Source: Bacteroidetes bacterium RIFCSPLOWO2_12_FULL_37_12 (GTDB taxonomy: Bacteria; Bacteroidota; Bacteroidia; 2-12-FULL-37-12). From it: a stretch of DNA of 64,000 nucleotides. Of the stretch, positions 40,013 to 54,552 are shown one piece after another. The DNA lies in contig MEPC01000024.1 in the NCBI GenBank assembly GCA_001769655.1, forward strand, positions 77,572 to 141,571. Reading direction: 5' to 3'. Position 1 is the first letter of the stretch, and every line of letters begins with the position of its first letter. Made by a program: the position numbers and the translations under genes. The notes under the pieces are model-generated. The model was not told the origin of the DNA, did not search any database, and saw only the letters and a list, made by a program, of their open reading frames with translations.

Positions 40013-41227
40013 ATGAAAACCAACAAACTATTCAGAAATCTACCTATGATTGTAATTCTTTTCTTTATTACCATGTCAATGATTATTTCCTACACCTTTA
40101 CCGGTTGCAACAAGGAAGTTGACACAGTAACTGTCACCAATGATGTGCACGACACTTTAAAAGGGAAGTCAATTTCGGGAGCTTGCACTTATCCCGATTA
40201 TGCAGGGGCTAAAGTAAAAGCCAAAGGTGCTGTTATCTCGCTTTATACAGGTACATTAAAAACCGGAAATCCCGTAGCAACCGCTATTGCCGATACCAAT
40301 GGGAATTACATACTCCCTTACTTGCTTCCAGGCAGTTATTATATATATGCTATATATAATACGGAAAATAAAAATGCAAAAGAGATAAATGGAATTGATT
40401 TTTCAACGAACCCTGGTTATGCAGTTACGTTGGCTTCAACCAATTTGGTTCAAGCTATTGACCTTGTAACTTATGGAACTACCGGCACAACCAAAATATC
40501 TCTGGATACATCGGTTAATAAATATCGTTTAGTCACATTAGATAAAGCGCATAGCAGAATTAGTTTTGAAACACCTTATGGTCCAGCAAGTCAAGGTGCA
40601 AATTTCCCAGGTATTTTTGGCGCACTTAAAGGGCAACCATCACAGACCGCATTTAATTTAACCAAATTTGCATTTGATGAAGCCACTCCTGCTAACACTA
40701 AAATAGAGGGCTATGTTTTATTGAGTGAACGCTCAACCGGAGAAGACGGAAGAGATGCATTGGGACAATGCGGTTCTAAAGCATTACTTATTGATACTAT
40801 TGGAATGAAGGATAGTTTGGGTGTATATCGCGCACGTCCTGAAACCGATACTTGCAAATTTATCAGCCAATCTGTAATAAAATACGGAAACGGTTATTTA
40901 TGCAAAGCCATTTTAAGAGGGTTTTTGATGCACAAAGGACCTGGTAACGGCGATCCCATTTGCCCAACCTGCCCGGCTGATACCGCATTAAAATTTACAG
41001 GTCCTTATGATGTTGTAAGAGATTTACCTGTTGAAATGTACTTTGAGTTTGCCGGTAAGCAGAAATATGATAATGTGGATCCCAAGAAAATATATTATGG
41101 TTTCCCATTTGAAGGCGTCTTCACTTTTGATAAAACAAAAATCAATATCAAACACGCATCCATTGGTAACATGGTTAAAGTAAATTGCCATGTAAATATC
41201 AAAGGAATAGTTGGTAAAGAATATTAA
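40013..41227 (+). CDS. lipoprotein with N-terminal carboxypeptidase-regulatory-like beta-sandwich and YceI-like domain
   Basis: Lipobox FTGC. GAVISLYTGTLKTGNPVATAIADTNGNYILPYLLPGSYYIY resembles CarboxypepD_reg. VTLDKAHSRISFETPYG...FGALKG fits the YceI-like pattern. Confidence 0.45.
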   Translation: MKTNKLFRNLPMIVILFFITMSMIISYTFTGCNKEVDTVTVTNDVHDTLKGKSISGACTYPDYAGAKVKAKGAVISLYTGTLKTGNPVATAIADTNGNYILPYLLPGSYYIYAIYNTENKNAKEINGIDFSTNPGYAVTLASTNLVQAIDLVTYGTTGTTKISLDTSVNKYRLVTLDKAHSRISFETPYGPASQGANFPGIFGALKGQPSQTAFNLTKFAFDEATPANTKIEGYVLLSERSTGEDGRDALGQCGSKALLIDTIGMKDSLGVYRARPETDTCKFISQSVIKYGNGYLCKAILRGFLMHKGPGNGDPICPTCPADTALKFTGPYDVVRDLPVEMYFEFAGKQKYDNVDPKKIYYGFPFEGVFTFDKTKINIKHASIGNMVKVNCHVNIKGIVGKEY

Positions 41228-42100: not shown

Positions 42101-42922
42101 ATGTGTATAATGTATAGAATCTGGTTCTTTCTCCTTGTCATTTTCCTACCAGGATGTTCTACTCCAAACAGTAGTGAAGAGGGCAAAGAGCGTGAAATGG
42201 CTTTTAAGAATCATATTAAAAAAATTACAGAATTCAAAACTATTTTGAATTTGGGAGGGATTTGGTTAAAAGAACAGGTACATCGTGAGAAGTTTTTTGA
42301 TAAGAATGGTTTTAAGTTCAAAGAAATAACCCATTACGATGATGGGAGCATTGAAAACATTATTTCATTACAGTATGATAAAAATGGGAATTTAATATTC
42401 CGGAAAGCGGTTAACCCTGACAGCAGTGTATCTTACAGTGATAAAAGGGTGTTTGACGAGCATAACAACAAGATAGAATATTATTTTTACAATCCGGATA
42501 GTACTCTCCTCTACAGGAAACCTGCTGTGTATGACAAGGAAGGGAAAATGATTGAAAGCAGAATGTACCACGATGGAGAATGGAAAGCAACCTACAAGTA
42601 TAAATATCAAGACGCCAGAATGACTGAGAATAATATATATGATTCAACAGGTAATTTCAAGCATAAATGGCTATATGTATATGACAATAGAAATAATCTT
42701 ATTGAAGAGGTACAGTATAATTCACAGAATTATATTTCTTATCAAAACAAGTATGAATATACTAAGGACAATTTTTTGATCAAAGAAACCAACTATGTCG
42801 GAGAGGAGGTTCAACGCTCGTTTTCATACAAATACAATGGTAAAAATCTTATGGAAATTAAAAACGAATATGTTTATGGGAGGTTAAATTCAAAATTCAG
42901 ATATGAATATGATTATTATTAA
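42101..42922 (+). CDS. lipoprotein with short Y/D/N-rich repeats
   Basis: Lipobox LPGC. Repeated ..YD..GN.I.. units. No catalytic motif. Confidence 0.4.
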   Translation: MCIMYRIWFFLLVIFLPGCSTPNSSEEGKEREMAFKNHIKKITEFKTILNLGGIWLKEQVHREKFFDKNGFKFKEITHYDDGSIENIISLQYDKNGNLIFRKAVNPDSSVSYSDKRVFDEHNNKIEYYFYNPDSTLLYRKPAVYDKEGKMIESRMYHDGEWKATYKYKYQDARMTENNIYDSTGNFKHKWLYVYDNRNNLIEEVQYNSQNYISYQNKYEYTKDNFLIKETNYVGEEVQRSFSYKYNGKNLMEIKNEYVYGRLNSKFRYEYDYY

Positions 42923-42923
42923 A

Positions 42924-42991
42924 GGCACCTCTAAAAACTGATATAATTCCTCTCCCTGCCCTCTCCAAGAGAGGGACAATAGGTAGTTTTT
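42924..42991. terminator. 17-bp perfect inverted repeat (gcacctctaaaaact / agtttttagaggtgc) enclosing a CCCTCTCC/GAGAGGG sub-hairpin, 2 nt after stop
   Basis: The inner motif belongs to the same CCCTCTCC/GGAGAGGG family as the sod-flanking hairpins. Confidence 0.5.
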
Positions 42992-43167
42992 AGAGGTGCC
43001 CTTAAAGTATTCAATGCGCTACCACAACATTGCCTTATGTGACGTGTATCATTTTGAAAAGTGATATAAATCGTTAATTTTAGTTACACTTTATTCTTTT
43101 TTTGTCTTTAGATTAACTTCTTTTAATGTAATTTTTATAAGAAGTCCATAATCTAAACAAAAAAAGT

Positions 43168-44007
43168 ATGAACAAAAAACTCCTTTTCACACTGTCTGCC
43201 TGTGTCATAATCATTATTTTTTCAACTGTCAGAGAAATTCATTCCAATGGTACCGGAGCGCCTGAGGGGTATTCGGGTGCGCCAGGTGGAAACGGCAACT
43301 GTACAGGATGCCATGAAGAAGGGTCGGGAAGCGATCAACCCGGATGGATTACGTCCAATATTCCGGTAACCGGTTATTTACCGGATAGTACTTATACTCT
43401 TACAGCTACGGCTACAAAAGTTGGCGAGCCAAAATTTGGTTTTGAAATAAGACCATATAGTACAGATGCCGCTAAAGAGGGGACATTAATCCTTACTGAT
43501 CCCAATGCAACTCAACTCATTGGCTCTGGAAAATACATAACTCATACGGCCACAGGAACTACAGGTAGTGGAAATAAATCATGGAATTTTAAATGGAAAG
43601 CCCCAGCCGCTGGTATCAATAAAGTAACTTTCTATGGAGCATTTGTATGCGCCAATAACAATGGAAGTCCAACCGAAGACGAGGTTTATGTTTCAACCTT
43701 AGCGGTGAAGGATACAACAAAAGTAGGCATAGAAGAATTTATAAGTAAAAACTCAAAAATCAACATATATCCAAACCCAGGCAATGGTAATTGCTTTATA
43801 GATATTGATGCACTTCATCACACTTCTTATAATGTCAGTATTGTGAATGGCACCGGGCAAATAATTCATAATGAAGTAGTGAATGTCACCCCAGGACAAA
43901 AAACTATAAAAAATATTCAGTTGGAGAATAACTCATACGGAACGTACATAATTAAATTTAGTTCAAACAAAGAAGAAATAAATAAACCACTGATAGTCAT
44001 TAAATAA
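43168..44007 (+). CDS. secreted CxxCH-motif (putative mono-heme) protein with T9SS type-A C-terminal sorting domain
   Basis: Signal peptide. A single CTGCH motif sits in a G/A/P-rich N-terminal segment (NGTGAPEGYSGAPGGNGNCTGCHEEG). The C-terminus KINIYPNPGNGNCFIDI...GTYIIKF matches the T9SS CTD. Confidence 0.6.
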   Translation: MNKKLLFTLSACVIIIIFSTVREIHSNGTGAPEGYSGAPGGNGNCTGCHEEGSGSDQPGWITSNIPVTGYLPDSTYTLTATATKVGEPKFGFEIRPYSTDAAKEGTLILTDPNATQLIGSGKYITHTATGTTGSGNKSWNFKWKAPAAGINKVTFYGAFVCANNNGSPTEDEVYVSTLAVKDTTKVGIEEFISKNSKINIYPNPGNGNCFIDIDALHHTSYNVSIVNGTGQIIHNEVVNVTPGQKTIKNIQLENNSYGTYIIKFSSNKEEINKPLIVIK

Positions 44008-44408
44008 TGAAACCACTTCATAATAAATTTTCAGTATTTCTTATTCTGTCACTGTTCTTCTTTTGGACGGGCTGTGAATACGAGTATGTAAAACCGGTAA
44101 AAGTTGTTACTACAACTCCAATAAGTTTTTCAAATGAAATCGTCCCTATTTTTACTGCAAACTGCATCGGTTGCCATAAAACGGGAGGTACGCCCCCCGA
44201 TTTTTCTGCAACAAATGCTTATCAAAGCATACAAACGAAAGCATTGACCGACACCCTTAATCCTGAATCAAGTTTACTATATCAAAGAATTACAAAGACA
44301 GGTACTATAGGTAGTGCGAAAGGGATTATGCCTCCCTCAGGAAAAATGCCGGATAGCAATATTTCGTTAATCCTTACTTGGATAAAACAAGGCGCTAAAA
44401 ATAATTAA
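44007..44408 (+). CDS. lipoprotein with PSCyt1-like (planctomycete-type cytochrome c) CxxCH domain
   Basis: Lipobox WTGC. IVPIFTANCIGCHKTGG...PESSLLYQRI...MPPSGKMP...LILTWIKQGA follows the PSCyt1 pattern. The start codon overlaps the stop of the upstream gene. Confidence 0.6.
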   Translation: MKPLHNKFSVFLILSLFFFWTGCEYEYVKPVKVVTTTPISFSNEIVPIFTANCIGCHKTGGTPPDFSATNAYQSIQTKALTDTLNPESSLLYQRITKTGTIGSAKGIMPPSGKMPDSNISLILTWIKQGAKNN

Positions 44409-44412
44409 CAAT

Positions 44413-45267
44413 ATGAAAATTTTCTTTTCCATTCTGACTTTCTTCCTTTTCACTGGAATTTTGATGGGGCAGGATGCACCCAAAAAAGATGAAGCGGTTG
44501 TCCCCGAAAAAAATACGTTTGAGGATTTGACTGTTATTAATAATGTGTCTATGGAAACCCTGAATAAAAAGGCACTTTCATTTTCCATACAGCATCGTTT
44601 TGGTAACGTAAATGAGGGGTTTAAAAAAGACCAGAATTTTGACTTGCTCGGTATTTTCGCCCCTGCGAATGTCCGGCTCGGTTTGGACTTTGGAATTACC
44701 GATCGTTTTATGCTTGGAATCGGTGGAACTAAAAATAATTACTTATATGACCTGGAATGGAAATACAGAATAATAAGGCAAGGCACAAAAGGAGGTTCTC
44801 CACTTTCAGTTACCTATTATGGTCTTGGTGCAAGAAATTCAAAATTGGACGATAAATTTAAAACATTTTCAAGCCGCTTATCCTTTTTTCATCAGTTGAT
44901 AATGGCACGGAAAATAACAAAAAAATTATCACTGCAAATTGCCGCATCCGTTTCACATTTTAATCTGGTGGATTCCTTAATGAATAATGATAATTACAGT
45001 TATCATTTTGCAGGCAGATATCAGTTCAGTCCGCAATCATCCATATTACTGGAATACAATGCCCCTATAACCAAAGCAAAATTATTTGAAACAAAACCTG
45101 ACTTGGCTTTTGGTTGGGAGATTGCCACACGCGGACATTCGTTTCAGATTTTTTTATGTACAGCTAACTCCATCGTTAAACAATACGATAATACATACAA
45201 CGTGAATGATTTTTCTAAAGGAGAAATGATGATTGGTTTCAATATTTCAAGAAGGTGGAAGTTTTAA
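44413..45267 (+). CDS. outer-membrane beta-barrel protein (possibly DUF5777-like, cytochrome-associated)
   Basis: Signal peptide, amphipathic beta-strand pattern and C-terminal RRWKF. Starts 5 nt after the upstream stop. Confidence 0.45.
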   Translation: MKIFFSILTFFLFTGILMGQDAPKKDEAVVPEKNTFEDLTVINNVSMETLNKKALSFSIQHRFGNVNEGFKKDQNFDLLGIFAPANVRLGLDFGITDRFMLGIGGTKNNYLYDLEWKYRIIRQGTKGGSPLSVTYYGLGARNSKLDDKFKTFSSRLSFFHQLIMARKITKKLSLQIAASVSHFNLVDSLMNNDNYSYHFAGRYQFSPQSSILLEYNAPITKAKLFETKPDLAFGWEIATRGHSFQIFLCTANSIVKQYDNTYNVNDFSKGEMMIGFNISRRWKF

Positions 45268-45383: not shown

Positions 45384-45860
45384 ATGAACAACTTAAAATC
45401 CATCATTCCGCTATCGGTAATTATATTGGCTTGCACGGCAATGACCTACAATCCAACAGCGGTTACCGAATCAAAACTAAAAGGGACAAAAATCCAACCA
45501 AAACATGAAACTGTTTTGGCTCCTGTAGAAGATACTACAAAATGGGTAGCTCCTGAAACAGCGCAACAGTTAAAAAATCCCACGGAATCCAATGAGGCAA
45601 CAAAGGCAGAGGGTGCCATTGTATATAAGAAAAATTGCCGTTCGTGTCACGGAAAAGATGGGGATGGACAGGGCGCTGAAGCCGCAGATTTAAAAACAAA
45701 ACCCACTGATTTCAGAGATACGAATTTTTCGAAACAAAGCGATGGTTCTATGCTTTGGAAAATACAAAAAGGACGTGGTGACATGACGGCATTTGAAAAA
45801 GATCTTACGGAAGATGAAATATGGAAGACAATAAATTACATCCGTTCTTTCTCTAAATAA
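45384..45860 (+). CDS. class I mono-heme cytochrome c
   Basis: Signal and lipobox (ILACT). Single CRSCH heme motif. Distal Met region MLWKIQKGRGDMTAF. 158 aa. Confidence 0.8.
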   Translation: MNNLKSIIPLSVIILACTAMTYNPTAVTESKLKGTKIQPKHETVLAPVEDTTKWVAPETAQQLKNPTESNEATKAEGAIVYKKNCRSCHGKDGDGQGAEAADLKTKPTDFRDTNFSKQSDGSMLWKIQKGRGDMTAFEKDLTEDEIWKTINYIRSFSK

Positions 45861-45873
45861 ATAGAAATACAAA

Positions 45874-47484
45874 ATGCGGTTCATATACACCAGCCATTTT
45901 TTTTGGGTTGTCATTTTTTTCATACCTATAGAATTTTCTTTTGCCCAAAATAATCCCGCTGATTTATTTGATGAGAATTGCGCTGATTGTCATTCCATTG
46001 GTGAAGGAGATATGAAAGGACCGGATTTAATGGGAGTAGAACAAAGGCGCTCTGAGGAGTGGTTGATTAAATTCACTAAATTTTCAAAGGGCATGATTGA
46101 AGAAGGTGAAATAGAGGCGGTAAAAGTTTGGGAAAAATATAAGAAAGCAAAGATGCCTAAAATTGATCTTTCAGATGAAGAAATAAAATCAATTTTTGCT
46201 TATATTAAAAGTAAAAATAAAAATGTTGCTCCGGTAAAACAAACTTCCGCAACAACTCCCAAAAAGCAAGAGGGCATAGCCCCTAAAGAACCCGGCACTC
46301 TGAATAAAAAAGTTATGGAAGAAAAAGGAGTGGCAATGGAAACAACTACAGTCAGTAATGAAGTGGCAACGGAAAACACTGCCAGAATAGATGAATTAGA
46401 AAAAAAGATTGACCAATTGTTGCACGTTCAACGCCGTTCGGCATTGATGGAAATAACAGAAGAAGATATTGCAAAGGGCAGGGACCTCTTTACCGGAATC
46501 ATTCCGTTTGAAAACGGCGCTCCAAATTGCATTTCATGCCACAACGTTGATGTCATTGACACCTTAAACTGGAACCCATCGGCTTTAGATATTGCCAATC
46601 TTTATTTGGATGATAAAAATATTGACTTTGAAAATTTGCTTTTACATCCCAAAACAGAACGACTTAAAAAATTATTAAACGAACATCCGTTGACTGAGCG
46701 CGAAGCATTTACCATTAAGGCATATCTTCAAACTATTAAAAAAGACGGGCTACATAAATCAAAATCAGCATCTCCTAATTCAATGTCATTAGGGATTGTT
46801 GTGGGTGTGTTGTTGTTGTCACTCATTGATTTACTATTTACAAAATGGATTAAAATAAAATTTATTCCAATTGTAATTATAATTGGTTCTATAGGTTATA
46901 TCTCTATTACCCCCTTTACCTTAAGCAAGAACATTGGACTCTCTAAAAATTATGAGCCCGACCAACCTATAAAATTTTCGCATAAAATACATTCAGGCGA
47001 AAACGGCATTGCTTGCCTGTACTGTCATAGCACTGCGGAGTATAGCAAAATCTCAGGTATCCCTCCTACGGAGGTTTGTGTAAATTGTCATTATAAAATT
47101 AAGAGCGGCGCCAATTCATGGACGTTTGAAATCAATAAAATAAACAGAGCATTGGAAACCAAACAGCCCATTAAATGGGTCAAGATTCATAATTTACCTG
47201 ACCATGTTTTCTTTAGTCATGCCCAACATGTTGGAGCCGGAAAAATTCAATGCCAGCAATGTCATGGGAAAATTGAAGAGATGGATAGGGTGAAGCAAGT
47301 GTCACCGCTTACGATGGGATGGTGTCTTGACTGTCACAGAACCAAAAATGTTAATATAAATGACAATAAATTTTATGATAGTTATAAAGGAATTCACGAT
47401 GATATTAAATCGGGTAAAATTAGTTCAGATTCTATTACGGTTGATTATCTGAATAAAAGTGATTGTTATACGTGTCATTATTAA
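45874..47484 (+). CDS. actA: alternative complex III subunit ActA, multiheme cytochrome c with extended N-terminal di-heme domain
   Basis: Seven CxxCH motifs (CADCH, CISCH, CLYCH, CVNCH, CQQCH, CLDCH, CYTCH). Internal TM helix (LGIVVGVLLLSLIDLLF). The C-terminal region carries the five canonical ActA hemes. Confidence 0.8.
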   Translation: MRFIYTSHFFWVVIFFIPIEFSFAQNNPADLFDENCADCHSIGEGDMKGPDLMGVEQRRSEEWLIKFTKFSKGMIEEGEIEAVKVWEKYKKAKMPKIDLSDEEIKSIFAYIKSKNKNVAPVKQTSATTPKKQEGIAPKEPGTLNKKVMEEKGVAMETTTVSNEVATENTARIDELEKKIDQLLHVQRRSALMEITEEDIAKGRDLFTGIIPFENGAPNCISCHNVDVIDTLNWNPSALDIANLYLDDKNIDFENLLLHPKTERLKKLLNEHPLTEREAFTIKAYLQTIKKDGLHKSKSASPNSMSLGIVVGVLLLSLIDLLFTKWIKIKFIPIVIIIGSIGYISITPFTLSKNIGLSKNYEPDQPIKFSHKIHSGENGIACLYCHSTAEYSKISGIPPTEVCVNCHYKIKSGANSWTFEINKINRALETKQPIKWVKIHNLPDHVFFSHAQHVGAGKIQCQQCHGKIEEMDRVKQVSPLTMGWCLDCHRTKNVNINDNKFYDSYKGIHDDIKSGKISSDSITVDYLNKSDCYTCHY

Positions 47485-47533
47485 TAGTTATATGGTTATA
47501 TGGTTATATGGTTAAATGGTTAATTAATAATTA

Positions 47534-50530
47534 TTGGATATTAAAATAATGAAGAAGTATTGGCAAAGTTTAGAACAAATGCAACCAGATGTCAAAACAA
47601 ATGGTAGTGGAGAAGTTCCGGGATTTCCTGATCATCATGAGGAACTGCGTAGTGAAAATCTTCAAAATAGTGCACCTTCCAGAAGAGATTTTTTGAAGTG
47701 GTGTGGTTTTTCCATTACCTCATTTGCTGTGATTTCCGGTTGCGAAAAACCAATAAATGAGGCAATTCCTTTTTTAATCAAGCCGGTTGACATCACTCCC
47801 GGTTTAGCAAACCATTATGCCTCTTCTTATTTTGATGGTAGTGAATATTGCAGTGTATTAGTTAAAACGAGAGATGGAAGACCAATCAAAATTGAAGGGA
47901 ATGAACTTTCCGGACTGACAAAAGGTGGGACCAGTGCAAAAGTTCAGGCATCCGTTTTAAGTTTATATGATTCTGAACGATTAACTCATCCCATTAGCCA
48001 CAACCATACGGCAACCTGGGATGAAGTGGATAATGAAGTAAAAGCAAATCTTAGCGCCATTGCCAAACGTGGAGGAAAAATTGTTATACTTTCTTCAAGT
48101 ATTATAAGTCCTTCCACACAAAGTGTTATTAAAGATTTTATAGGGAAATACCCAACGGCAGAATTGATTAAGTATGATGCGATTTCTTTTTCGGCTACAT
48201 TGGATGCAAATAAAAAATCTTTCGGATTACAAGTGATCCCCGGTTATAGTTTTGATAAAGCGGAAATGATTGTAAGTTTTGGAGCAGATTTTCTGGGAAC
48301 ATGGCTTTCACCTGTTGAGTTCACAAAACAGTATGTCGTAAATAGAAAATTGGATAATGGCAGACAATCCATGTCAAAACACATTCAGTTTGAAACCGGT
48401 ATGTCGCTCACCGGAAGTAATGCTGACGAAAGAATTCCAATTAAACCATCCGAAGAAAAAATAATTCTTGGCAATTTGTATAATGAATTGGCAAAATTAG
48501 CCGGTGCAGATGCCATTAAAGTTCATACATCATCTCATAATGTCACAAAGTTGGCGGAAGAATTATGGTCTCATAGAAAAAAATCACTCGTTATTTCGGG
48601 AACCAATGATACGGTGACACAAACAATTATTAACGCAATCAATGTACTCCTTGAAAGTTATGGTAATACGATGGATTTGAATACTCCCATAAATCTCAGA
48701 CAAGCAATTGATCAGGAGATGATTTCATTAGTTGAGAATATGAATAATGGTAAAGTGGAAGCGCTACTTTTATACAACGTAAATCCGGTCTATGACTATC
48801 CGGATGCCACTAAATTTATAAACGGATTGTCAAAAGTTTTATTTACATTATCATTTTCAGATCGTTTGGATGAAAGTTCTTCGCTTGTAAAATATGTTTG
48901 CCCCGACAATCATTATTTGGAAAGTTGGAATGATGCTGAACCGAAAAATGGCTTTTTCAGTTTGACTCAACCCACCCTGCATACCTTATTTGCAACCCGT
49001 TCTGCTCAGGATAGTATTTTGAAATGGGCTGAAATTGATATAAGCCATTATAACTATATTAAAGAATACTGGAAAAAAAATATTTTTCCGTTGCAAACAT
49101 CAATCACTGACTTTGAACATTTCTGGGTAAAGAGTTTACAGGAAGGTGTTTTTGAATCTCATTCCGCACCGGTTTCACAACCTGCTTATATAAGTCAAGG
49201 GTTCAAAGATGCATCTTTAGAGTTGGAAAAACCGGTAGAGTCGGCTGAAGGAATTGAATTGGAGGTATATGAAAACATCGGTATAGGAAATGGAAAGCAT
49301 GCCAATAATCCATGGTTGCAGGAATTACCTGATCCAATTTCTAAGGTGAGTTGGGATAATTATGTAGCTGTGTCGCCAAAATTTGCAAGCGAACAGGGTT
49401 TGGAGAATGGCACAGTTGTAAAAATTGGGAATAAAAATAAACAATTGGAATTGCCGGTTTTTGTGCAACCCGGTCAGGCACAAGGAACCATATCCATTGC
49501 ATTGGGTTATGGAAGAACAGCCGGCGGAAAAGTGGCGGCAGGTCTTGGCGCTAACGCATATTCGTTGTTGGAAGTAAAGCAAGGGAATATTCAATACAAA
49601 ATAAAAGGAATAAAAATTGACAAAACAGATAAGCATCACTCATTAGCGCTAAGTCAAACTCATAACCTGATGGAAGGACGTGCTATTGTTAAAGAAACAA
49701 CATTAGCAAGCTATATTGAAAATCCTTCCTCTGGGAATGAAGATCGGAAAAAAATAATGGAGGAGTCAGTTACTTTATATGATAAATTGGAACACAAAGG
49801 ATTACGGTGGGGAATGTCTATTGATTTGAATGCATGTACGGGTTGTGGTAATTGTGTCATCGCTTGTCAGGCAGAGAATAATGTTCCTGTGGTTGGAAAA
49901 GAAGAAGTGGAACGCAGACGCATCATGCACTGGTTAAGTATTAACAGATATTTTTCCGATAGTCCGGATAATCCTCAAACAGTACATCAACCGATGTTAT
50001 GCCAACATTGCGAAAATGCTCCCTGTGAAAATGTTTGTCCTGTTTCAGCAACCATGCATAGTTCGGAAGGACTCAATCAAATGGCATATAACCGCTGTGT
50101 GGGTACACGCTATTGCATGAATAATTGTCCTTATAAAGTTCGCCGGTTTAATTGGTTTGAATATGTTGACAACGATAATTTTGATTATCATTTGAATAAT
50201 AAACTCGGAAAAATGGTGCTCAATCCTGATGTAACGGTACGCTCACGTGGGGTGGTTGAGAAATGTTCTTTTTGTATTCAACGGATTCAGGAAGGAAAAT
50301 TAAAAGCGAAGTTGGAAAACCGCGAATTAAAGGACTACGAAATACAAACGGCTTGCATGAGTTCTTGCCCGGCAAATGCCATTGTTTTTGGAAATTTAAA
50401 CGATAAAGATAGTGCTGTGTCACAGCTAATCAAAGATGATCGGAATTATAATGTGCTGGAAGAATTACACATATTGCCCTCTATTGGTTATCTAACGAAG
50501 GTCAGGAATACGGAGGGGAAGGAGGTATAA
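47534..50530 (+). CDS. actB: ACIII subunit ActB, Tat-exported molybdopterin-oxidoreductase-like / 4Fe-4S iron-sulfur protein
   Basis: Twin-arginine signal SRRDFLKW. Large MopB-like domain lacking obvious Mo-ligands. C-terminal ferredoxin-like Cys clusters (CTGCGNCVIACQ, CQHCENAPCENVCP, CVGTRYCMNNCPYKV). Confidence 0.9.
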   Translation: MDIKIMKKYWQSLEQMQPDVKTNGSGEVPGFPDHHEELRSENLQNSAPSRRDFLKWCGFSITSFAVISGCEKPINEAIPFLIKPVDITPGLANHYASSYFDGSEYCSVLVKTRDGRPIKIEGNELSGLTKGGTSAKVQASVLSLYDSERLTHPISHNHTATWDEVDNEVKANLSAIAKRGGKIVILSSSIISPSTQSVIKDFIGKYPTAELIKYDAISFSATLDANKKSFGLQVIPGYSFDKAEMIVSFGADFLGTWLSPVEFTKQYVVNRKLDNGRQSMSKHIQFETGMSLTGSNADERIPIKPSEEKIILGNLYNELAKLAGADAIKVHTSSHNVTKLAEELWSHRKKSLVISGTNDTVTQTIINAINVLLESYGNTMDLNTPINLRQAIDQEMISLVENMNNGKVEALLLYNVNPVYDYPDATKFINGLSKVLFTLSFSDRLDESSSLVKYVCPDNHYLESWNDAEPKNGFFSLTQPTLHTLFATRSAQDSILKWAEIDISHYNYIKEYWKKNIFPLQTSITDFEHFWVKSLQEGVFESHSAPVSQPAYISQGFKDASLELEKPVESAEGIELEVYENIGIGNGKHANNPWLQELPDPISKVSWDNYVAVSPKFASEQGLENGTVVKIGNKNKQLELPVFVQPGQAQGTISIALGYGRTAGGKVAAGLGANAYSLLEVKQGNIQYKIKGIKIDKTDKHHSLALSQTHNLMEGRAIVKETTLASYIENPSSGNEDRKKIMEESVTLYDKLEHKGLRWGMSIDLNACTGCGNCVIACQAENNVPVVGKEEVERRRIMHWLSINRYFSDSPDNPQTVHQPMLCQHCENAPCENVCPVSATMHSSEGLNQMAYNRCVGTRYCMNNCPYKVRRFNWFEYVDNDNFDYHLNNKLGKMVLNPDVTVRSRGVVEKCSFCIQRIQEGKLKAKLENRELKDYEIQTACMSSCPANAIVFGNLNDKDSAVSQLIKDDRNYNVLEELHILPSIGYLTKVRNTEGKEV

Positions 50531-50718
50531 AGAAAAAAACATAAAACACAAAACAAGAAATGAAAAATGTATAAGTATGAATGCATTTATGTAAACAGTC
50601 ACAAAAATATAGATAGGGAACCACTTAGTCATTTATTGTTATGTGTTTTATGTTATATGTTAATCATTTTTATTAAACCTGAGTACCGTTGTTGTGATAA
50701 AAATTAATAGATACAATT

Positions 50719-52086
50719 ATGTATGAGTCACCCATCAGAGACCCTTTAGTAACAGGAGGGAAGGACTATCACCAGATATCAGAAGATATATGTGCTCCAT
50801 TAGAGGCGCGTAAATTTTCCAAGATGTGGTATTTTATTTTATGGCTTAGCATTTCAGCCATGTGTTTTGGAGGTTGGGCGCTTTATATTACCATCACACA
50901 AGGTATTGGTGCATGGGGAGTAAACAATACAGTTTGCTGGGGCTGGGGAATTATCAATTTTGTTTGGTGGATAGGAATAGGACATGCGGGTACTGCCTTT
51001 TCAATTTTTCTACTCGTGCTACGGCAAAGATGGAGGACATCCATTAACCGTTCTGCAGAAGCAATGACTGTGTTTGCAATTCTGTGTGCATCATTGTATC
51101 CCATTGCGCACATGGGAAGAATTTGGGTGTGCTATTTTGTTTTCCCTTACCCGAATGCAAGAGGTCCCCTGTGGGTAAATTTTAATTCTCCGTTGTTATG
51201 GGATGTTTTTGCAATAGGAACGTATGTGCTTGCATCCTCTACATTCTGGTACTTGGGAATGCTTCCGGATTTTGCTACCATCCGGGATCGTGCCACTACA
51301 AAGATTCGGAAATCAATTTACGGATTTCTTAGTTTCGGTTGGGATGGTTCCGCAAGAACCTGGTTACGTTTTGAATCGCTTTCCTCAATTTTAGCCGGAC
51401 TTGCCGCCGCGTTGGTGGTTTCGGTGCATTCTATCATCTCAATGGATTTTGCTACTTCCGTAATCTACGGATGGCATACTACCATCTTTCCACCCTATTT
51501 TGTAGTAGGCGCTATTTTTTCAGGATTTGCAATGGTGCTAACGTTGATGATTATTGTACGAAGAGCGTTTAATTTTCAAGATTATGTGACTAATTCTCAT
51601 CTGAACGCAATCACAAAAATTTTGGTATTTATCAGTTTGATTATGGGTACAGGATATACCACGGAGATTTTTCTATCCTGGTATTCAGGGAATGAATATG
51701 AATTTTTCGTATTTTTTCATAACCGGATTTCAGGTGACTACGCACTCCCTTATTGGACAATGATCGTATGTAATGCCATCATTCCGCAATTATTCTGGTT
51801 TAAGAAAATCAGAAAGAATCTAACGATTGTATTTATTATTTCATTAATAATAAATATCGGGATGTGGTTCGAAAGATTTGTTATCGTAGTCACCTCACTT
51901 TCTAAAGATTATCTTCCCGCAAATTGGTGGGAATATAAACCCACCGTTGTGGAAATGGGTATTTTTATCGGAACACTTGGATTTTTTGTCTTTGGTCTCT
52001 TATTATTTTTGAGATACTTGCCGGTGATTGCCATCAGTGAAGTGAAGGGGGTTTTAAAACCTGGTAAAAAACCGGAGGGACATTAA
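50719..52086 (+). CDS. actC: ACIII subunit ActC, NrfD/PsrC-like quinol-binding membrane subunit
   Basis: About 10-TM NrfD-family protein (WGVNNTVCWGWGIINFVWWIGIGHAGTAFS). Confidence 0.85.
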   Translation: MYESPIRDPLVTGGKDYHQISEDICAPLEARKFSKMWYFILWLSISAMCFGGWALYITITQGIGAWGVNNTVCWGWGIINFVWWIGIGHAGTAFSIFLLVLRQRWRTSINRSAEAMTVFAILCASLYPIAHMGRIWVCYFVFPYPNARGPLWVNFNSPLLWDVFAIGTYVLASSTFWYLGMLPDFATIRDRATTKIRKSIYGFLSFGWDGSARTWLRFESLSSILAGLAAALVVSVHSIISMDFATSVIYGWHTTIFPPYFVVGAIFSGFAMVLTLMIIVRRAFNFQDYVTNSHLNAITKILVFISLIMGTGYTTEIFLSWYSGNEYEFFVFFHNRISGDYALPYWTMIVCNAIIPQLFWFKKIRKNLTIVFIISLIINIGMWFERFVIVVTSLSKDYLPANWWEYKPTVVEMGIFIGTLGFFVFGLLLFLRYLPVIAISEVKGVLKPGKKPEGH

Positions 52087-52090
52087 AAAA

Positions 52091-52118
52091 AGGTATGGGG
52101 GTATAGGGGTATAGATGT
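52091..52118. repeat. short GGTATGGGGGTATAGGGGTATAGATGTATA array between actC and actD
   Basis: Octamer family member lying inside the ACIII operon. Confidence 0.6.
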
Positions 52119-52136
52119 ATATAACTGGAAAAAAAC

Positions 52137-52661
52137 ATGAACAAAAAATATATCATAGGGATTTTTAAAGAAGAAGAAAATTTAATTTCTGCGCTAAAAA
52201 AGATCCGCGCCGGAAACATCACCATAAAGGATGTTTACATGCCCTATCCTGTACATGGTGTTTTTGAAGCGGCGGGTATTAAAAATACAAGATTACCGAT
52301 TGCGGCAATTTGTTTTGGTATTCTGGGTTTGACCCTTTCCTTTATTTTTGTTTACTGGAGTTCCGCGATTAGTTATCCTTTGATTTACGGAGGAAAACCG
52401 CATTTTTCAATTTTATCATTCGTCATCATTGGTTTTTTATTGACTATTAACATTGGTTCATTCCTAAGTGTCATCACATTTTTTTTGCGGGTTAAATTAT
52501 TCCCAGGTAAAAAAAACAAGGTGATTGATTACCGTGTCACCGACAATCGATTTGCAATTGTTACAGAAATAAAAGAGGATGTTTCTTCCGATGAAATTCG
52601 CATTACGAAGTTATTAATGGAAGAAAACGGAGCGGAAGAAATAAATGAACGTAGTATTTAA
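52137..52661 (+). CDS. actD: ACIII subunit ActD (DUF3341 membrane protein)
   Basis: 174 aa with N-terminal soluble part plus 2 TM. Position between the actC and actE genes. Confidence 0.75.
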   Translation: MNKKYIIGIFKEEENLISALKKIRAGNITIKDVYMPYPVHGVFEAAGIKNTRLPIAAICFGILGLTLSFIFVYWSSAISYPLIYGGKPHFSILSFVIIGFLLTINIGSFLSVITFFLRVKLFPGKKNKVIDYRVTDNRFAIVTEIKEDVSSDEIRITKLLMEENGAEEINERSI

Positions 52662-52762
52662 ATAGTTTTAAATGTAATCGTAGGGAAAGACCTATGTGTC
52701 TTTTCTAAACCACGTTTTAAGTTTTAACAACTCTGTACACCATATTTATAGTCATAGTAATT

Positions 52763-53380
52763 ATGAAAATCAATTTTCCCATAGTTTATTTTGCATTTTT
52801 TTTGCTGATTGGTTACTCCTTCACGGGTTGTGAACCTGACAGAAAAAAGCCCGGTTACGATTACTTTCCTGATATGGTTTATTCAAAAGCGTACGAAACG
52901 TATCAGGCGAATCCTAATTATTCCGATGGTAAAACAGTTCAAAATCCGGTAGAAGGAACTATATCCCGTGAAATGATCCCATATCAATATCCCAAAACAG
53001 AAGAGGGTATGAAAAAAGCGGGCATTGAACTTACTATTCCTAAAAATTTAGTAGAGGTTAATCCGGAACGAGGAAAAAGAGAATATGAAATTTTTTGTGG
53101 AATCTGTCATGGTAGTGATGGAAAGGGAGAGGGAATTTTATACAAAAGTGGAAAATACCCGACCGAACCGGCATCTCTTGTTTCCCAGGATATGATTGAA
53201 AAACCTGATGGAGAGGTCTTTCATGTAATCACTGTTGGTTCCGCTATCATGCAAGCACATGCCTCACAAATCAAAGAAGAAGATAGATGGAAAATTATTT
53301 TATATATCAAAAATGTGCTTCAAAAAGATAATAAAAAGCGGTTAGATAGTTTGGCGAGTGTCAAGAAAGTTACAAAATAA
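52763..53380 (+). CDS. actE: ACIII subunit ActE, mono-heme cytochrome c lipoprotein
   Basis: Lipobox FTGC. Single CGICH motif. Met-containing C-terminal region. Confidence 0.8.
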   Translation: MKINFPIVYFAFFLLIGYSFTGCEPDRKKPGYDYFPDMVYSKAYETYQANPNYSDGKTVQNPVEGTISREMIPYQYPKTEEGMKKAGIELTIPKNLVEVNPERGKREYEIFCGICHGSDGKGEGILYKSGKYPTEPASLVSQDMIEKPDGEVFHVITVGSAIMQAHASQIKEEDRWKIILYIKNVLQKDNKKRLDSLASVKKVTK

Positions 53381-53391
53381 AAAAGTCAGCA

Positions 53392-54552
53392 ATGGAAGAA
53401 CAATATACAATATCTGAGAAACTCAAGAAGATCACCTACGTTCTTATGGGCATTGGAGCGCTTACTTTTAGTGTGGGTCTCTTTTTAAATCCAGCGCAAT
53501 CATGGGCTAATTTTCTTCTGAACAATTACTATTTTTTGTCACTTTCAATAGGAGCTATATTTTTTATTGCCATTCAATACATTACACAATCCGGTTGGTC
53601 AGCTATGTTTAAAAGAATACCCGAGGCAATGGGTGGGTATTTTCCCGTAGCGGCGGTGGCTATGCTTATTTTAATGCTCGGCTCTCACTCTATTTATCAT
53701 TGGACTCATAGCGAACAACTCGCTGATGACACGGCAGTGGCACATAAATTAAATTACTTTACTATTCCTTTTTTTATTATCCGGATCATACTCTTTTTTG
53801 CCGCCTGGATTTATTTATTTTCATTACTCAGAAAAGAATCTATCAAAGAGGATTTAAACGGTGGTTTGGAGTCATTTCATAAAAGTGAATTTTATTCCAA
53901 AGTATTTATTTTTGTTCTTGCCCTCACTTTTTCATTAGGAACAATAGATTGGATTATGTCTATAGATATTCACTGGTATAGTACTATTTTTGCCGTTACT
54001 AATCTGGTGAGCGCTTTTTATCATGCATCCGCTTTCATTACGTTGGTTGTCATTTTACTAAACGAAAAAGGATTTTTTAAATTTCTTAATAAAGATCATT
54101 TACACGATTTTTCAAAATACATTTACATCCTAGGTATTATTTGGGTTTATTTCTGGTTTTCACAATATTTGCTGATGTGGTATGCAAATATTCCTGAGGA
54201 AACAATATATTATGTGAAGAGAGTGCAAGGTAATTGGAAAATTTTATTCTATTTGAATATACTATTAAATTGGGCAATTCCCTTTATTGTACTCCTTCCC
54301 AATAAAGCATGTAAAAACAAAACTGTACTGAAAACAATCTGCTTGATTCTGATTATAGGACAATGGGTTGACTTATATTTGCAAATTATGCCTGGATCTG
54401 TCGGGGAATTTCATTTGGGTATTATTGAATTAGGTATGTTCCTTGGTTTTCTTGGTTTATTCATTTTCATCTTTGCAAAAACCTTGCGTAAAGCATCTCT
54501 CATTCCTAAGAATCATCCCTACCTTGAGGAAAGTATGTATCATCATATCTAA
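53392..54552 (+). CDS. actF: ACIII subunit ActF, second NrfD-like membrane subunit
   Basis: About 10 TM, paralogous topology to ActC. Last gene of the co-directional cluster. Confidence 0.8.
   Translation: MEEQYTISEKLKKITYVLMGIGALTFSVGLFLNPAQSWANFLLNNYYFLSLSIGAIFFIAIQYITQSGWSAMFKRIPEAMGGYFPVAAVAMLILMLGSHSIYHWTHSEQLADDTAVAHKLNYFTIPFFIIRIILFFAAWIYLFSLLRKESIKEDLNGGLESFHKSEFYSKVFIFVLALTFSLGTIDWIMSIDIHWYSTIFAVTNLVSAFYHASAFITLVVILLNEKGFFKFLNKDHLHDFSKYIYILGIIWVYFWFSQYLLMWYANIPEETIYYVKRVQGNWKILFYLNILLNWAIPFIVLLPNKACKNKTVLKTICLILIIGQWVDLYLQIMPGSVGEFHLGIIELGMFLGFLGLFIFIFAKTLRKASLIPKNHPYLEESMYHHI

What the first reader, a model, noticed from the sequence alone, without database searches (positions are those of the whole stretch)
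43168..45267. Tightly packed trio (T9SS-sorted CxxCH protein, PSCyt1-like CxxCH lipoprotein, beta-barrel OMP) directly upstream of cytochrome c and the ACIII operon
Three co-directional genes with a 1-nt overlap and a 5-nt gap encode the following. (a) A secreted protein with a single CTGCH heme-attachment motif in a Gly/Ala/Pro-rich N-terminal segment and a bona fide T9SS C-terminal sorting domain. (b) A lipoprotein whose CIGCH domain follows the planctomycete PSCyt1 pattern. (c) An outer-membrane beta-barrel. A c-type heme protein routed to the cell surface by the T9SS is unusual for Bacteroidetes. The placement is immediately 5' of a periplasmic mono-heme cytochrome c and a complete ACIII. 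This suggests an outer-membrane or cell-surface branch of the respiratory chain, or a heme/metal handling module, that is not described as such.
Basis: partly seen in the sequence, partly recalled or inferred. Interest (0 to 1): 0.75.

Follow-up and report, generated by a model that had tools for sequence, protein, structure and literature searches.

The report
Outer-envelope cytochrome genes beside ACIII
Three tightly packed genes sit in front of a respiratory complex (a secreted protein with a conserved haem-attachment motif, a small lipid-anchored cytochrome c and a 12-stranded outer-membrane barrel); the last two form a widespread, unstudied Bacteroidota gene pair that in this lineage is always joined to that complex, which hints at an undescribed outer-envelope branch of respiration.

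Summary
In detail: three co-directional ORFs (43168-44007, 44007-44408, 44413-45267) with a TAATG overlap and a 4-nt gap lie upstream of a monohaem cytochrome c and actABCDEF.

P1 belongs to NCBIfam 'choice-of-anchor V'. It is a Reeler-type beta-sandwich behind an N-terminal CXnCH arm, followed by a type-A T9SS tail. The Cys...Cys-His motif is kept in 143 of 144 family representatives while the spacing varies. At least 120 of the 144 carry a T9SS tail.

P2 is a lipoprotein cytochrome c with invariant lipid Cys and CXnCH, and Met-Pro at 98%. It scores below threshold for PSCyt1.

P3 is DUF5777, modelled as a 12-stranded barrel, too small for an Mtr-type sheath.

The trio is not a fixed unit. 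P2-DUF5777 is the conserved pair (63 of 79 genomes), usually with a YceI-like protein (66 of 79). P1 joins only sometimes (5 of 79 DUF5777 loci; about 13 of 71 P1 loci).

ACIII linkage is rare family-wide. It is consistent in the window's clade (4 of 4 closest relatives), and four more distant relatives sit beside NrfCD-type modules.

The most likely reading is an outer-membrane-anchored extension of the cytochrome c chain with an exchangeable third haem protein. The mechanism is inferred and nothing comparable was found in the literature searched.

The parts
42919..43005 (.). Long hairpin element (21-nt arms, 45-nt spacer) directly after the upstream lipoprotein gene. It probably marks the 5' boundary of the trio's transcription unit.
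   Evidence: the repeat finder. A second copy lies at 3838-3926.
43168..44007 (+). P1: secreted putative c-type haem protein. It has a signal peptide, a choice-of-anchor V / Reeler-like N-domain (residues ~28-185), a flexible linker, and a type-A T9SS C-terminal domain (residues 200-277).
43300..43314 (+). CTGCH haem-attachment motif of P1 (C45, C48, H49).
   Evidence: Invariant in alignments A1 and A4. In 144 family representatives the spacing is CX2CH 95, CX4CH 34, CX3CH 10, CX5CH 4, and one sequence reads CSCH.
43765..43998 (+). T9SS type-A C-terminal sorting domain of P1.
44007..44408 (+). P2: monohaem class-I-like cytochrome c lipoprotein. Lipid Cys C23 is at 44073-44075, CIGCH at 44163-44177, and the distal Met108-Pro109 follows. 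Its start overlaps the P1 stop (TAATG).
   Evidence: PF00034 22.0 bits against 21.3; PSCyt1 below its cut-off. In the 56-sequence family alignment the lipid Cys, C, C, H and W125 are 100% conserved and M-P is 98%.
44413..45267 (+). P3: DUF5777 outer-membrane beta-barrel, modelled with 12 strands and a confidently placed N-terminal segment. It has a signal peptide ending LMG|QDAP.
45384..45860 (+). Monohaem cytochrome c (158 aa). This gene lies between DUF5777 and actA in every clade member examined.
   Evidence: Cytochrome_CBB3 and Cytochrom_C above their cut-offs. Orthologues in L168, L169, L170 and L172 score E 1e-39 to 4e-76 in the same position.
45874..54552 (+). Alternative complex III operon: actA (45874-47484, 7 CxxCH), actB (47534-50530), actC (50719-52086), actD (52137-52661), actE (52763-53380), actF (53392-54552).
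   Evidence: QrcA-like, cytochrome c7, Molybdopterin plus 4Fe-4S, NrfD, ActD PF11821 and cytochrome c hits. Haem motif count.

Best explanation
The locus is a composite with three layers.

(1) P2 plus P3 is a conserved two-gene module of Bacteroidota. P2 is a His/Met-type monohaem cytochrome c tethered by a lipid anchor. P3 is a small 12-stranded outer-membrane barrel (DUF5777).

(2) In the lineage of this window, the module is fixed immediately upstream of a soluble monohaem cytochrome c and the ACIII operon. In a sister lineage it sits beside NrfC/NrfD/cytochrome c modules.

(3) The slot in front of P2 is filled by different haem proteins in different genomes. Here it holds P1, a member of the large 'choice-of-anchor V' family. 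P1 has a Reeler-type beta-sandwich with an N-terminal CXnCH arm that most likely carries a covalently bound haem, and it is exported by the T9SS.

Proposed mechanism (inferred, not shown):
- Quinol is oxidised by ACIII.
- Electrons pass to the 158-aa periplasmic cytochrome c and on to P2 at the outer membrane, or flow the opposite way.
- P3 is too narrow to house a cytochrome. It would act as a gate for a small polar or anionic redox-active solute, or as the docking partner that positions P2.
- P1 is an accessory extracellular haem protein acting on the same chemistry outside the cell.

What is shown: gene order, motifs, family membership, fold predictions and synteny statistics. What is inferred: haem attachment, localisation, electron flow and the substrate.
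For: Operon structure: TAATG overlap and a 4-nt gap.

P1:
- NF041895 and the T9SS CTD score above their cut-offs.
- CXnCH is kept in 143 of 144 representatives with variable spacing, and the domain always follows the signal peptide directly.
- The fold is Reeler-type.

P2: the lipid Cys, CXnCH and Met-Pro are conserved.

P3: 12-strand model, pTM 0.83, with channel-like structural neighbours. The conserved basic and polar residues lie on the polar strand faces.

Pairing: a P2-type gene is on the same strand next to DUF5777 in 63 of 79 genomes.

Respiratory linkage:
- L168, L169, L170 and L172 (50-73% identical barrels) all show P2 - DUF5777 - cytochrome c - ActA....
- L171, L008 and the contexts of P0062 and P0064 link the pair to NrfC/NrfD/cytochrome c in different gene orders. 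Persistence through rearrangement argues for selection over mere inheritance.

Exchangeable slot: P1 here and in L173, L035, L039, L040 and L064; a dihaem cytochrome c lipoprotein in L168 and L172; an EB_dh-domain haem protein in L171 and the P0064 context.

P1-P2 adjacency recurs in at least 11 of 71 P1 loci, many of them on short contigs.
Against: - No experiment exists, and no paper on DUF5777 or on T9SS cytochromes was found.
- Most P1 homologues have no P2, DUF5777 or respiratory neighbour.
- In long family members the P1-type domain sits at the tip of PKD/SprB/Ig stalks, far from the membrane. That fits a binding or catalytic head better than a link in an electron chain.
- In the broad DUF5777 family the steady partners are a YceI-like protein (66 of 79) and an OB-fold protein (32 of 79), often near two-component regulators, and ACIII is nearby in only 2-3 of 79. 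The core function therefore need not be respiratory.
- Monohaem proteins and a 12-strand barrel give no obvious path for electrons across the outer membrane.
- A 116-nt gap with a hairpin separates P3 from the cytochrome c gene, so co-transcription with ACIII is unproven.
- P2's orientation is undetermined: its post-Cys sequence CEYEYVKP is not a clear lipoprotein export signal.
Confidence: 0.4

Rival explanations
1. Envelope lipid, quinone or stress module. DUF5777 would be an outer-membrane enzyme or hydrophobic-ligand gate, not a solute channel. It would work with the YceI-like isoprenoid/lipid-binding protein, with P2 supplying or removing electrons. The ACIII/NrfD adjacency would reflect a shared quinone theme or shared regulation.
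For: - YceI-like is the most constant neighbour of DUF5777 (66 of 79).
- Clusters often sit beside two-component or AraC regulators.
Against: - The window's clade lacks a clear YceI gene in the cluster. There is only a weak local similarity in the ORF at 40013..41227 (E 1e-07 pairwise, no Pfam hit).
- Strand-face assignment without coordinates cannot tell a membrane-facing patch from packing against an internal plug.
- The idea does not explain why a cytochrome c is so constant a partner.
Confidence: 0.2
2. Two-part analogue of the Cyc2 pathway. P2 plus P3 would act like the fused monohaem cytochrome-porin Cyc2 of iron oxidisers. Fe(II) or another metal would be oxidised at the barrel, with electrons passing through the periplasmic cytochrome c to ACIII or an oxidase.
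For: - The gene order (monohaem cytochrome, outer-membrane barrel, periplasmic cytochrome c, ACIII) mirrors the published Cyc2-Cyc1-ACIII scheme (PMC5566968).
- The source is a low-oxygen aquifer MAG from the Rifle site (names).
Against: - The two proteins are not fused.
- The barrel is modelled with only 12 strands.
- Conserved residues on the polar (presumed lumen) strand faces are mostly basic (R62, R88, K117, K167, R202), which fits anions better than Fe2+.
- The family is common in ordinary aerobic heterotrophs such as Chitinophaga, Dyadobacter, Tenacibaculum and Algoriphagus.
- No sequence similarity to Cyc2 was tested or seen.
Confidence: 0.12
3. P1 is functionally unrelated to P2 and P3. 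It would be a surface or secreted binding (adhesin-like) protein that merely happens to be inserted here. Its Cys...Cys-His motif might bind a metal or form a disulfide, with no haem involved.
For: - Most P1 homologues occur without P2 or DUF5777.
- Long members place the domain on adhesin-type stalks.
- The core fold is the Reeler domain. Its eukaryotic members are described as adhesion modules of unknown function (bioRxiv 10.1101/2023.09.01.555970).
- No cytochrome family model hits P1.
Against: - The TAATG overlap with P2 is there.
- The P1-P2 junction is kept in the nearest relative L173, with P1 52% and P2 73% identical.
- P1 is next to P2, YceI or DUF5777 in about 13 of 71 loci and in 5 of 79 DUF5777 loci, far above what is plausible by chance for a rare gene, although no formal null was computed.
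- A CH dipeptide kept with a variable upstream Cys (CX2-5CH) is typical of haem-c sites.
- Other genomes put a different haem protein in the same slot.
Confidence: 0.15
4. Haem or iron acquisition module: a secreted haem-binding protein, a periplasmic haem-handling lipoprotein and an outer-membrane haem channel.
For: Only the presence of haem-related motifs and an outer-membrane protein. One transcriptome paper lists a YceI-like gene among genes that respond to iron limitation in Riemerella (PMC5429918).
Against: - CXnCH with His/Met ligation marks covalent cytochromes, not haemophores.
- No TonB-dependent receptor or haem-uptake genes recur in the 79 + 71 loci.
- A 12-strand barrel is unlike the known haem transporters.
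Confidence: 0.05

Closest known systems
Cyc2 - Cyc1 - ACIII/oxidase pathway of neutrophilic iron oxidisers (fused monohaem cytochrome-porin; PMC5566968)
   Same: A monohaem cytochrome is associated with an outer-membrane beta-barrel, followed by a soluble periplasmic cytochrome c and ACIII. No multihaem wire is involved.
   Different: Here the cytochrome and the barrel are separate genes. The cytochrome is a lipoprotein and the barrel is modelled with 12 strands. No sequence relationship was shown. The family is common in ordinary heterotrophic Bacteroidota and usually comes with a YceI-like protein.
Porin-cytochrome complexes (MtrCAB, MtoAB/PioAB, Geobacter Pcc)
   Same: A gene cluster that combines a periplasmic cytochrome, an outer-membrane barrel and a cell-surface haem protein.
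   Different: Those systems use deca- or multihaem cytochromes threaded through barrels of 20-26 strands (own knowledge). Here every partner has one haem motif and the barrel has 12 strands, so the sheath mechanism is not possible.
NCBIfam NF041895 'choice-of-anchor V' domain / Reeler domain (PF02014; F-spondin reeler structures 3coo, 2zot)
   Different: The N-terminal Gly/Pro-rich arm with the invariant CXnCH (residues ~28-63) lies outside the region that matches eukaryotic reeler domains. No function or cofactor for the bacterial family was found in the literature searched.
Cytochrome f (large domain)
   Different: There is no sequence similarity and it is absent from the Foldseek top 50. 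It is an architectural analogy only. The distal ligand in P1 is unknown; H126 is about 90% conserved.
Reeler-DOMON-cytochrome b561 ferric reductases (SDR2/FRRS1, CG8399; bioRxiv 10.1101/2023.09.01.555970)
   Same: An extracellular reeler or DOMON-type beta-sandwich sits at the outer end of a redox chain. In sister loci the slot of P1 is taken by an EB_dh (DOMON-superfamily) haem protein.
   Different: Those are eukaryotic single polypeptides with b-type haems. The reeler domain there has no known cofactor.
Outer-membrane-anchored redox lipoproteins of Neisseria (lipid-modified azurin, AniA, cytochrome c peroxidase) fed by periplasmic c-type cytochromes (own knowledge, not checked here)
   Same: Small redox proteins tethered to the outer membrane by a lipid anchor, drawing on the respiratory cytochrome c pool.
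   Different: The protein families are unrelated. There is no dedicated barrel partner and no T9SS component.

Membership tests
NCBIfam NF041895 choice-of-anchor V domain (P1) | HMM score above the curated cut-off (42 bits) | tested here: met
   99.4 bits, E 1.9e-28, residues 22-178.
NCBIfam NF041895 choice-of-anchor V domain (P1) | The domain is followed by one of several C-terminal sorting or anchor signals | tested here: met
   A T9SS type-A CTD occupies residues 200-277. At least 120 of 144 relatives also end in a T9SS CTD. Other anchor types were not examined.
T9SS type-A cargo (P1) | Por_Secre_tail / TIGR04183 domain at the extreme C-terminus, above threshold | tested here: met
   PF18962 37.1 bits against 27, and TIGR04183 29.3 against 23. 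The fold matches solved CTDs.
T9SS type-A cargo (P1) | N-terminal Sec signal peptide, and T9SS machinery in the genome | tested here: inconclusive
   A signal peptide is evident from the sequence. The window holds two other T9SS-tailed proteins. No T9SS machinery gene lies in the window.
T9SS type-A cargo (P1) | Actual secretion and CTD cleavage | not testable with these tools
   This needs secretome or surface proteomics.
c-type cytochrome (P1) | A conserved Cys-Xn-Cys-His haem attachment site in an exported protein | tested here: met
   Invariant in A1 and A4. CX2-5CH is kept in 143 of 144 representatives.
c-type cytochrome (P1) | Homology to a recognised cytochrome c family | tested here: not met
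   No cytochrome model in Pfam or NCBIfam hits P1. Only insignificant PDB hits to reaction-centre cytochrome haem segments were seen (E 0.045-6).
c-type cytochrome (P1) | An identifiable conserved distal ligand | tested here: inconclusive
   H126 is conserved in at least 90% of sequences but is Gln in some.
c-type cytochrome (P1 and P2) | Covalently bound haem demonstrated | not testable with these tools
   This needs haem staining or mass spectrometry.
Reeler domain PF02014 (P1 core) | Pfam score above the gathering cut-off (21 bits) | tested here: not met
   18.7 bits, E 0.0026. Two homologues (P0028, P0047) do carry precomputed PF02014 hits. Fold-level agreement is strong.
Class I cytochrome c PF00034 (P2) | Score above the cut-off, plus CxxCH and a distal Met | tested here: met
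   22.0 bits against 21.3, which is marginal. C, C and H are 100% conserved and Met108-Pro109 98% in 56 relatives.
PSCyt1 PF07635 (P2) | Score above the gathering cut-off (22 bits) | tested here: not met
   13.8 bits, E 0.091. A relative in L021 reaches 17.6 bits. The shared C-terminal MPP...W motif suggests distant kinship only.
Surface-exposed Bacteroidota lipoprotein (P2) | Lipoprotein export signal C-X-K-(D/E)2-X or SDDDD/SDDFE at positions +2 to +6 (PMC5080379) | tested here: inconclusive
   The window's P2 reads CEYEYVKP. 38 of 39 relatives have at least 1 acidic residue in +1..+6, but few match the positional consensus.
DUF5777 PF19089 (P3) | Score above the cut-off, and a beta-barrel | tested here: met
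   251 bits. The model has 12 strands and pTM 0.83.
Mtr/Pcc-type porin-cytochrome complex | Multihaem periplasmic and surface cytochromes, and a barrel of 20 or more strands | tested here: not met
   There is one haem motif each in P1 and P2, and the barrel has 12 strands.
Cyc2 fused cytochrome-porin | A single polypeptide with an N-terminal monohaem domain and a C-terminal porin | tested here: not met
   P2 and P3 are separate ORFs with a 4-nt gap. Sequence similarity to Cyc2 was not tested.
Alternative complex III (downstream operon) | actA-F gene set: multihaem ActA, molybdopterin-like/FeS ActB, NrfD-like ActC and ActF, ActD, and monohaem ActE | tested here: met
   ActF has no Pfam hit here, but in L169 the ActC-type ORF also matches the window's ActF weakly (E 1e-13).

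The most novel reading that the evidence does not exclude
The choice-of-anchor V domain would be a new structural class of c-type cytochrome: a Reeler-fold beta-sandwich with an N-terminal haem arm. Bacteroidota would export it through the T9SS, often on long surface stalks. Together with the P2 lipoprotein cytochrome and the DUF5777 barrel (plus YceI in most genomes), it would form a previously unrecognised, non-multihaem route. That route would couple the quinol:cytochrome c oxidoreductases (ACIII or NrfCD-type) to redox chemistry outside the outer membrane, for example turnover of an extracellular anionic oxidant or reductant such as superoxide, or metal redox.
Probability: 0.15. Interest if true: 0.85.

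Novelty: new variant of a known kind. Interest (0 to 1): 0.6.

Why it matters
Bacteroidota are not known for extracellular or outer-membrane electron transfer, and the T9SS is studied as an exporter of hydrolases, adhesins and motility proteins.

Three things come out of this locus:
- A family with thousands of cluster representatives has an invariant haem-c attachment motif and a T9SS tail.
- A cytochrome c lipoprotein / 12-strand barrel pair is present across the phylum.
- That pair is repeatedly wired into ACIII or NrfCD operons.

Together these point to an unexplored piece of envelope redox biology.

The idea is directly testable. Cultured carriers of the P2-YceI-DUF5777 cluster exist (Chitinophaga, Dyadobacter, Tenacibaculum, Algoriphagus). 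Haem staining of secreted and outer-membrane fractions would settle the first question quickly.

If the haem is real, the P1 domain would add a new fold to the c-type cytochromes and a new cargo class to the T9SS.

If the pair proves unrelated to respiration, the result still gives a testable context to three 'unknown function' families: DUF5777, choice-of-anchor V and the P2 lipoproteins.

Tried and rejected
- **Mtr-like porin-cytochrome conduit.** Rejected: the barrel has 12 strands and all partners have a single haem motif.
- **P2 as a PSCyt1 member.** Rejected at the family threshold; kept only as a distant resemblance.
- **Trio as one conserved unit linked to ACIII.** P1 homologue neighbourhoods show no ACIII. 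The first genome scan of DUF5777 also suggested that ACIII adjacency was incidental (2-3 of 79). I revised that after looking at the closest DUF5777 relatives.
- **Surface exposure of P2 via the lipoprotein export signal.** Inconclusive.
- **YceI in the window.** The ORF at 40013..41227 shows only a weak local match to the YceI-like lipoprotein of L171 and has no Pfam YceI hit.
- **Literature.** Searches for DUF5777, T9SS plus cytochrome/CXXCH/EET, and YceI plus cytochrome in Bacteroidetes found nothing relevant.
Full report
**1. What is there**

The window matches a Bacteroidetes MAG from the Rifle aquifer series; P0001 is 100% identical.

Three + strand ORFs occupy 43168..44007 (P1, 279 aa), 44007..44408 (P2, 133 aa) and 44413..45267 (P3, 284 aa). 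The P1 stop and the P2 start share one base (TAATG, 44005-44009). P2 and P3 are 4 nt apart.

Upstream, a lipoprotein gene ends at 42922 and is followed by a long hairpin (42919-43005). The trio therefore probably starts its own transcript.

Downstream, a 116-nt spacer with a small hairpin precedes a 158-aa monohaem cytochrome c (45384..45860) and then actABCDEF (45874..54552). These were confirmed by QrcA/cytochrome c7, molybdopterin/4Fe-4S, NrfD, ActD (PF11821) and cytochrome c hits.

**2. P1**

P1 matches NCBIfam NF041895 'choice-of-anchor V' (99.4 bits against a cut-off of 42). It also matches a type-A T9SS C-terminal domain (PF18962 and TIGR04183, both above their cut-offs) and, weakly, the Reeler domain (18.7 bits against 21).

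An AlphaFold model built on 30 homologues is confident (pLDDT 87).

Fold comparisons:
- The family profile finds F-spondin at E 0.004.

The motif itself:
- CTGCH (residues 45-49) lies in a Gly/Pro-rich arm N-terminal to the region that matches Reeler.
- C45, C48 and H49 are invariant in 30 homologues and in 145.
- In 144 cluster representatives the spacing varies while Cys...Cys-His stays: CX2CH 95, CX4CH 34, CX3CH 10, CX5CH 4, and one sequence reads CSCH.
- This behaviour is typical of haem-c attachment sites, and a coincidental motif would not show it.
- A possible distal ligand, H126, is conserved in at least 90% of sequences but is not invariant.

The family:
- It is large: 3,905 representatives at E<=0.001 and 1,721 at E<=1e-10.
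- The domain always follows the signal peptide directly.
- At least 120 of 144 representatives end in a T9SS tail.
- Long members insert PKD, SprB-repeat, Ig or fn3 stalks between the N-domain and the tail. The putative haem domain then sits at the distal tip of a surface stalk.

A haem-motif T9SS cargo is thus common in genomes. No paper describing one was found.

**3. P2**

P2 has a lipobox Cys (C23), CIGCH (53-57) and a C-terminal MPP...W motif. It passes PF00034 marginally and fails PSCyt1.

In 56 relatives the lipid Cys, both haem Cys, the His and W125 are invariant, and Met108-Pro109 is 98% conserved. That is the signature of a His/Met class-I-type cytochrome c lipoprotein.

As in P1, the motif spacing varies: CX2CH 34, CX4CH 18, CX5CH 3.

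Its post-Cys sequence (CEYEYVKP) is acidic. It does not match the published lipoprotein export signal, C-X-K-(D/E)2-X or SDDDD/SDDFE (PMC5080379). Which face of the outer membrane it occupies is open.

**4. P3**

P3 is DUF5777 (251 bits). The model (pTM 0.83) has 12 strands and a confidently placed N-terminal segment.

Its nearest structures are 12-strand barrels: FapF 18.2, KdgM 17.7, the COG4313 channel 17.4, NanC 16.8, autotransporter beta-domains about 16, and LpxR 15.1. Such a barrel cannot enclose a cytochrome.

The conserved polar residues R62, R88, D113, K117, Q161, K167, Q175, R202 and N277 fall on the polar strand faces and are mostly basic. The two invariant His (H61, H242) sit within unusually conserved hydrophobic faces of strands 1, 11 and 12, which meet at the barrel seam. 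Without coordinates I cannot tell whether that patch faces the lipid or an internal plug.

**5. Neighbourhoods of the barrel**

A scan of species-representative genomes gave 79 usable DUF5777 loci, all 30-37% identical to P3.

Same-strand neighbours within about 3 kb:

| Neighbour | Loci (of 79) |
|---|---|
| YceI-like protein | 66 |
| P2-type cytochrome | 63 |
| tRNA_anti-like OB-fold protein | 32 |
| Strong P1 homologue | 5 |

The typical order is OB - P2 (one or two copies) - YceI - DUF5777. It often lies next to two-component or AraC regulators. ACIII was nearby in only 2-3 loci, and in L058 it was not operonic.

The closest relatives of the window's barrel tell a different story:
- L168 (55% identical), L169 (51%), L170 (73%) and L172 (50%) all show P2 - DUF5777 - a ~160-aa cytochrome c - ActA....
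- L171 and L008 (35-44% identical), and the gene tables around P0062 and P0064, place the pair beside an NrfC-like FeS protein, NrfD, a small membrane protein and a cytochrome c. The gene orders differ.

Linkage to quinol:cytochrome c oxidoreductase-type complexes is therefore consistent in this part of the family and persists through rearrangement.

**6. Neighbourhoods of P1**

Four look-ups and 71 metagenome loci show P1 homologues mostly alone or after AraC/metallo-beta-lactamase genes.

At least 11 have a P2-type gene adjacent, 6 a DUF5777 and 5 a YceI. In all about 13 loci are linked to the module, many of them on short contigs. None has an ACIII subunit.

The nearest P1 relative (L173, 52% identical) repeats the window's order: upstream lipoprotein (57% identical) - P1 - P2 (73% identical). 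The contig ends there. L170 is a different organism and lacks P1.

In L168 and L172 the slot before P2 holds a dihaem cytochrome c lipoprotein. In L171 and the P0064 context it holds an EB_dh (DOMON-superfamily) protein with CX3CH and CxxCH motifs.

So P2-P3 is the core, and the gene in front of it is an exchangeable haem protein, of which P1 is one version.

**7. Interpretation**

Shown:
- The genes, motifs, family memberships and predicted folds.
- The synteny statistics.

Inferred:
- Both CXnCH sites carry haem.
- P2 is tethered to the outer membrane.
- P1 is exported by the T9SS.
- The module exchanges electrons with the cytochrome c pool served by ACIII.

My preferred reading (confidence 0.4) is an outer-membrane-anchored extension of the periplasmic cytochrome chain. 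In it, the narrow barrel admits a small polar or anionic redox solute or positions P2, and P1 acts outside the cell.

Against this: the wider family's steady partner is YceI and not a respiratory complex, P1-type domains sit on long stalks, and there is no evident electron path across the membrane.

Rivals:
- A lipid/quinone or stress module built around DUF5777 plus YceI (0.2).
- P1 being unrelated to its neighbours (0.15).
- A two-part Cyc2-like metal oxidase (0.12; scheme in PMC5566968).
- Haem or iron uptake (0.05).

**8. Novelty**

The individual families have database models (NF041895, PF19089). I found no functional description of any of them, of their association, or of T9SS-exported cytochromes.

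Relative to the known cytochrome/barrel systems (Cyc2, Mtr/Pcc) this would be a new variant: separate monohaem lipoprotein and 12-strand barrel, an exchangeable third haem protein, and T9SS delivery.

The finding is real and moderately interesting. Its weakest part is the mechanism, and its most testable part is whether P1 and P2 bind haem.

Noticed in passing
window 42919-43005 and 3838-3926: A roughly 87-nt hairpin element (20-21-nt arms, 45-49-nt spacer) occurs twice in the window. The second copy differs at two arm positions, and both arms carry the matching change, so pairing is kept (4 arm matches against 0.06 expected). It may be a REP/MITE-like repeat or a shared terminator. The copy at 3838-3926 lies inside the mechanically called ORF 3732..5768, so that gene may really start further downstream.
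   Followed up: partly
window 45874-47484 (actA): ActA carries 7 CxxCH motifs: 2 in an N-terminal extension (residues 36 and 219, the first in a class-I cytochrome c domain) plus 5 in the C-terminal part that matches QrcA/cytochrome c7. The orthologues in L168 and L172 also have 7. To my knowledge the characterised ActA subunits are pentahaem, so this is a heptahaem variant.
   Followed up: partly
window 40013-41227: This 404-aa lipoprotein lies three genes upstream of the trio. It has a local match (30% over 114 aa, pairwise E 1e-07) to the YceI-domain lipoprotein that precedes the EB_dh-P2-DUF5777 cluster in L171, but no Pfam YceI hit. It could be a divergent YceI-like partner of the module.
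   Followed up: partly
L171 2623-4005; gene table for P0064: An EB_dh (PF09459, DOMON-superfamily) lipoprotein of 418-460 aa sits directly upstream of P2-DUF5777 in the NrfCD-linked clade. The L171 protein has a CX3CH (CAASCH), placed ahead of a C-terminal cytochrome c-like region that carries CTYCH. It occupies the same slot as P1, which suggests an exchangeable beta-sandwich haem partner.
   Followed up: partly
L171 5346-8688; L008; gene tables for P0062 and P0064: There is a compact four-gene module: a TAT-signal NrfC-like FeS protein (~312 aa), NrfD (~460 aa), a ~190-aa single-pass protein, and a monohaem cytochrome c (~140-156 aa, related to the window's 158-aa cytochrome). It looks like a reduced ACIII-type quinol:cytochrome c oxidoreductase without ActA or the molybdopterin-like half of ActB.
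   Followed up: no
P0170-P0208: Long members of the P1 family place the CXnCH/Reeler domain at the N-terminal tip of PKD_6, SprB-repeat, Ig or fn3 stalks ending in a T9SS tail (up to 1,177 aa). That is, a putative haem head on an adhesin-like filament.
   Followed up: partly
window 44413-44463: The public annotation of P3 (P0049, 267 aa) starts 17 codons downstream of the ATG at 44413, which removes the signal peptide (MKIFFSILTFFLFTGILMG|QDAP). The longer ORF is the plausible one for an outer-membrane protein.
   Followed up: no
window 43093-43169: Two overlapping A/T-rich inverted repeats (17 nt at 88% and 13 nt at 92% complementarity) lie immediately upstream of, and run into, the P1 start codon. 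They could be a regulatory or translation-control hairpin, or simply low-complexity sequence.
   Followed up: no
window 28364-33670 (-) and 34781-37960 (-): Two further T9SS cargo genes are present: a 1,768-aa protein with 19 matched PKD_4 stretches and a CHU_C (type-B) tail, and a 1,059-aa protein with a Por_Secre_tail. The organism evidently uses the T9SS.
   Followed up: no
L168 1954-5061 (-): In one ACIII-linked relative, CcmF-like and CcmE genes lie about 2.5 kb upstream of the cytochrome cluster on the opposite strand, next to a T9SS-tailed Ig_7 protein.
   Followed up: no
L001 9153-10834; L095, L099, L064: P1-family genes often occur as tandem paralogue pairs. In several unrelated contigs they follow a metallo-beta-lactamase-fold gene and an AraC-type regulator, and precede CHU_C and large T9SS proteins. 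This second recurrent context is unrelated to cytochromes.
   Followed up: no
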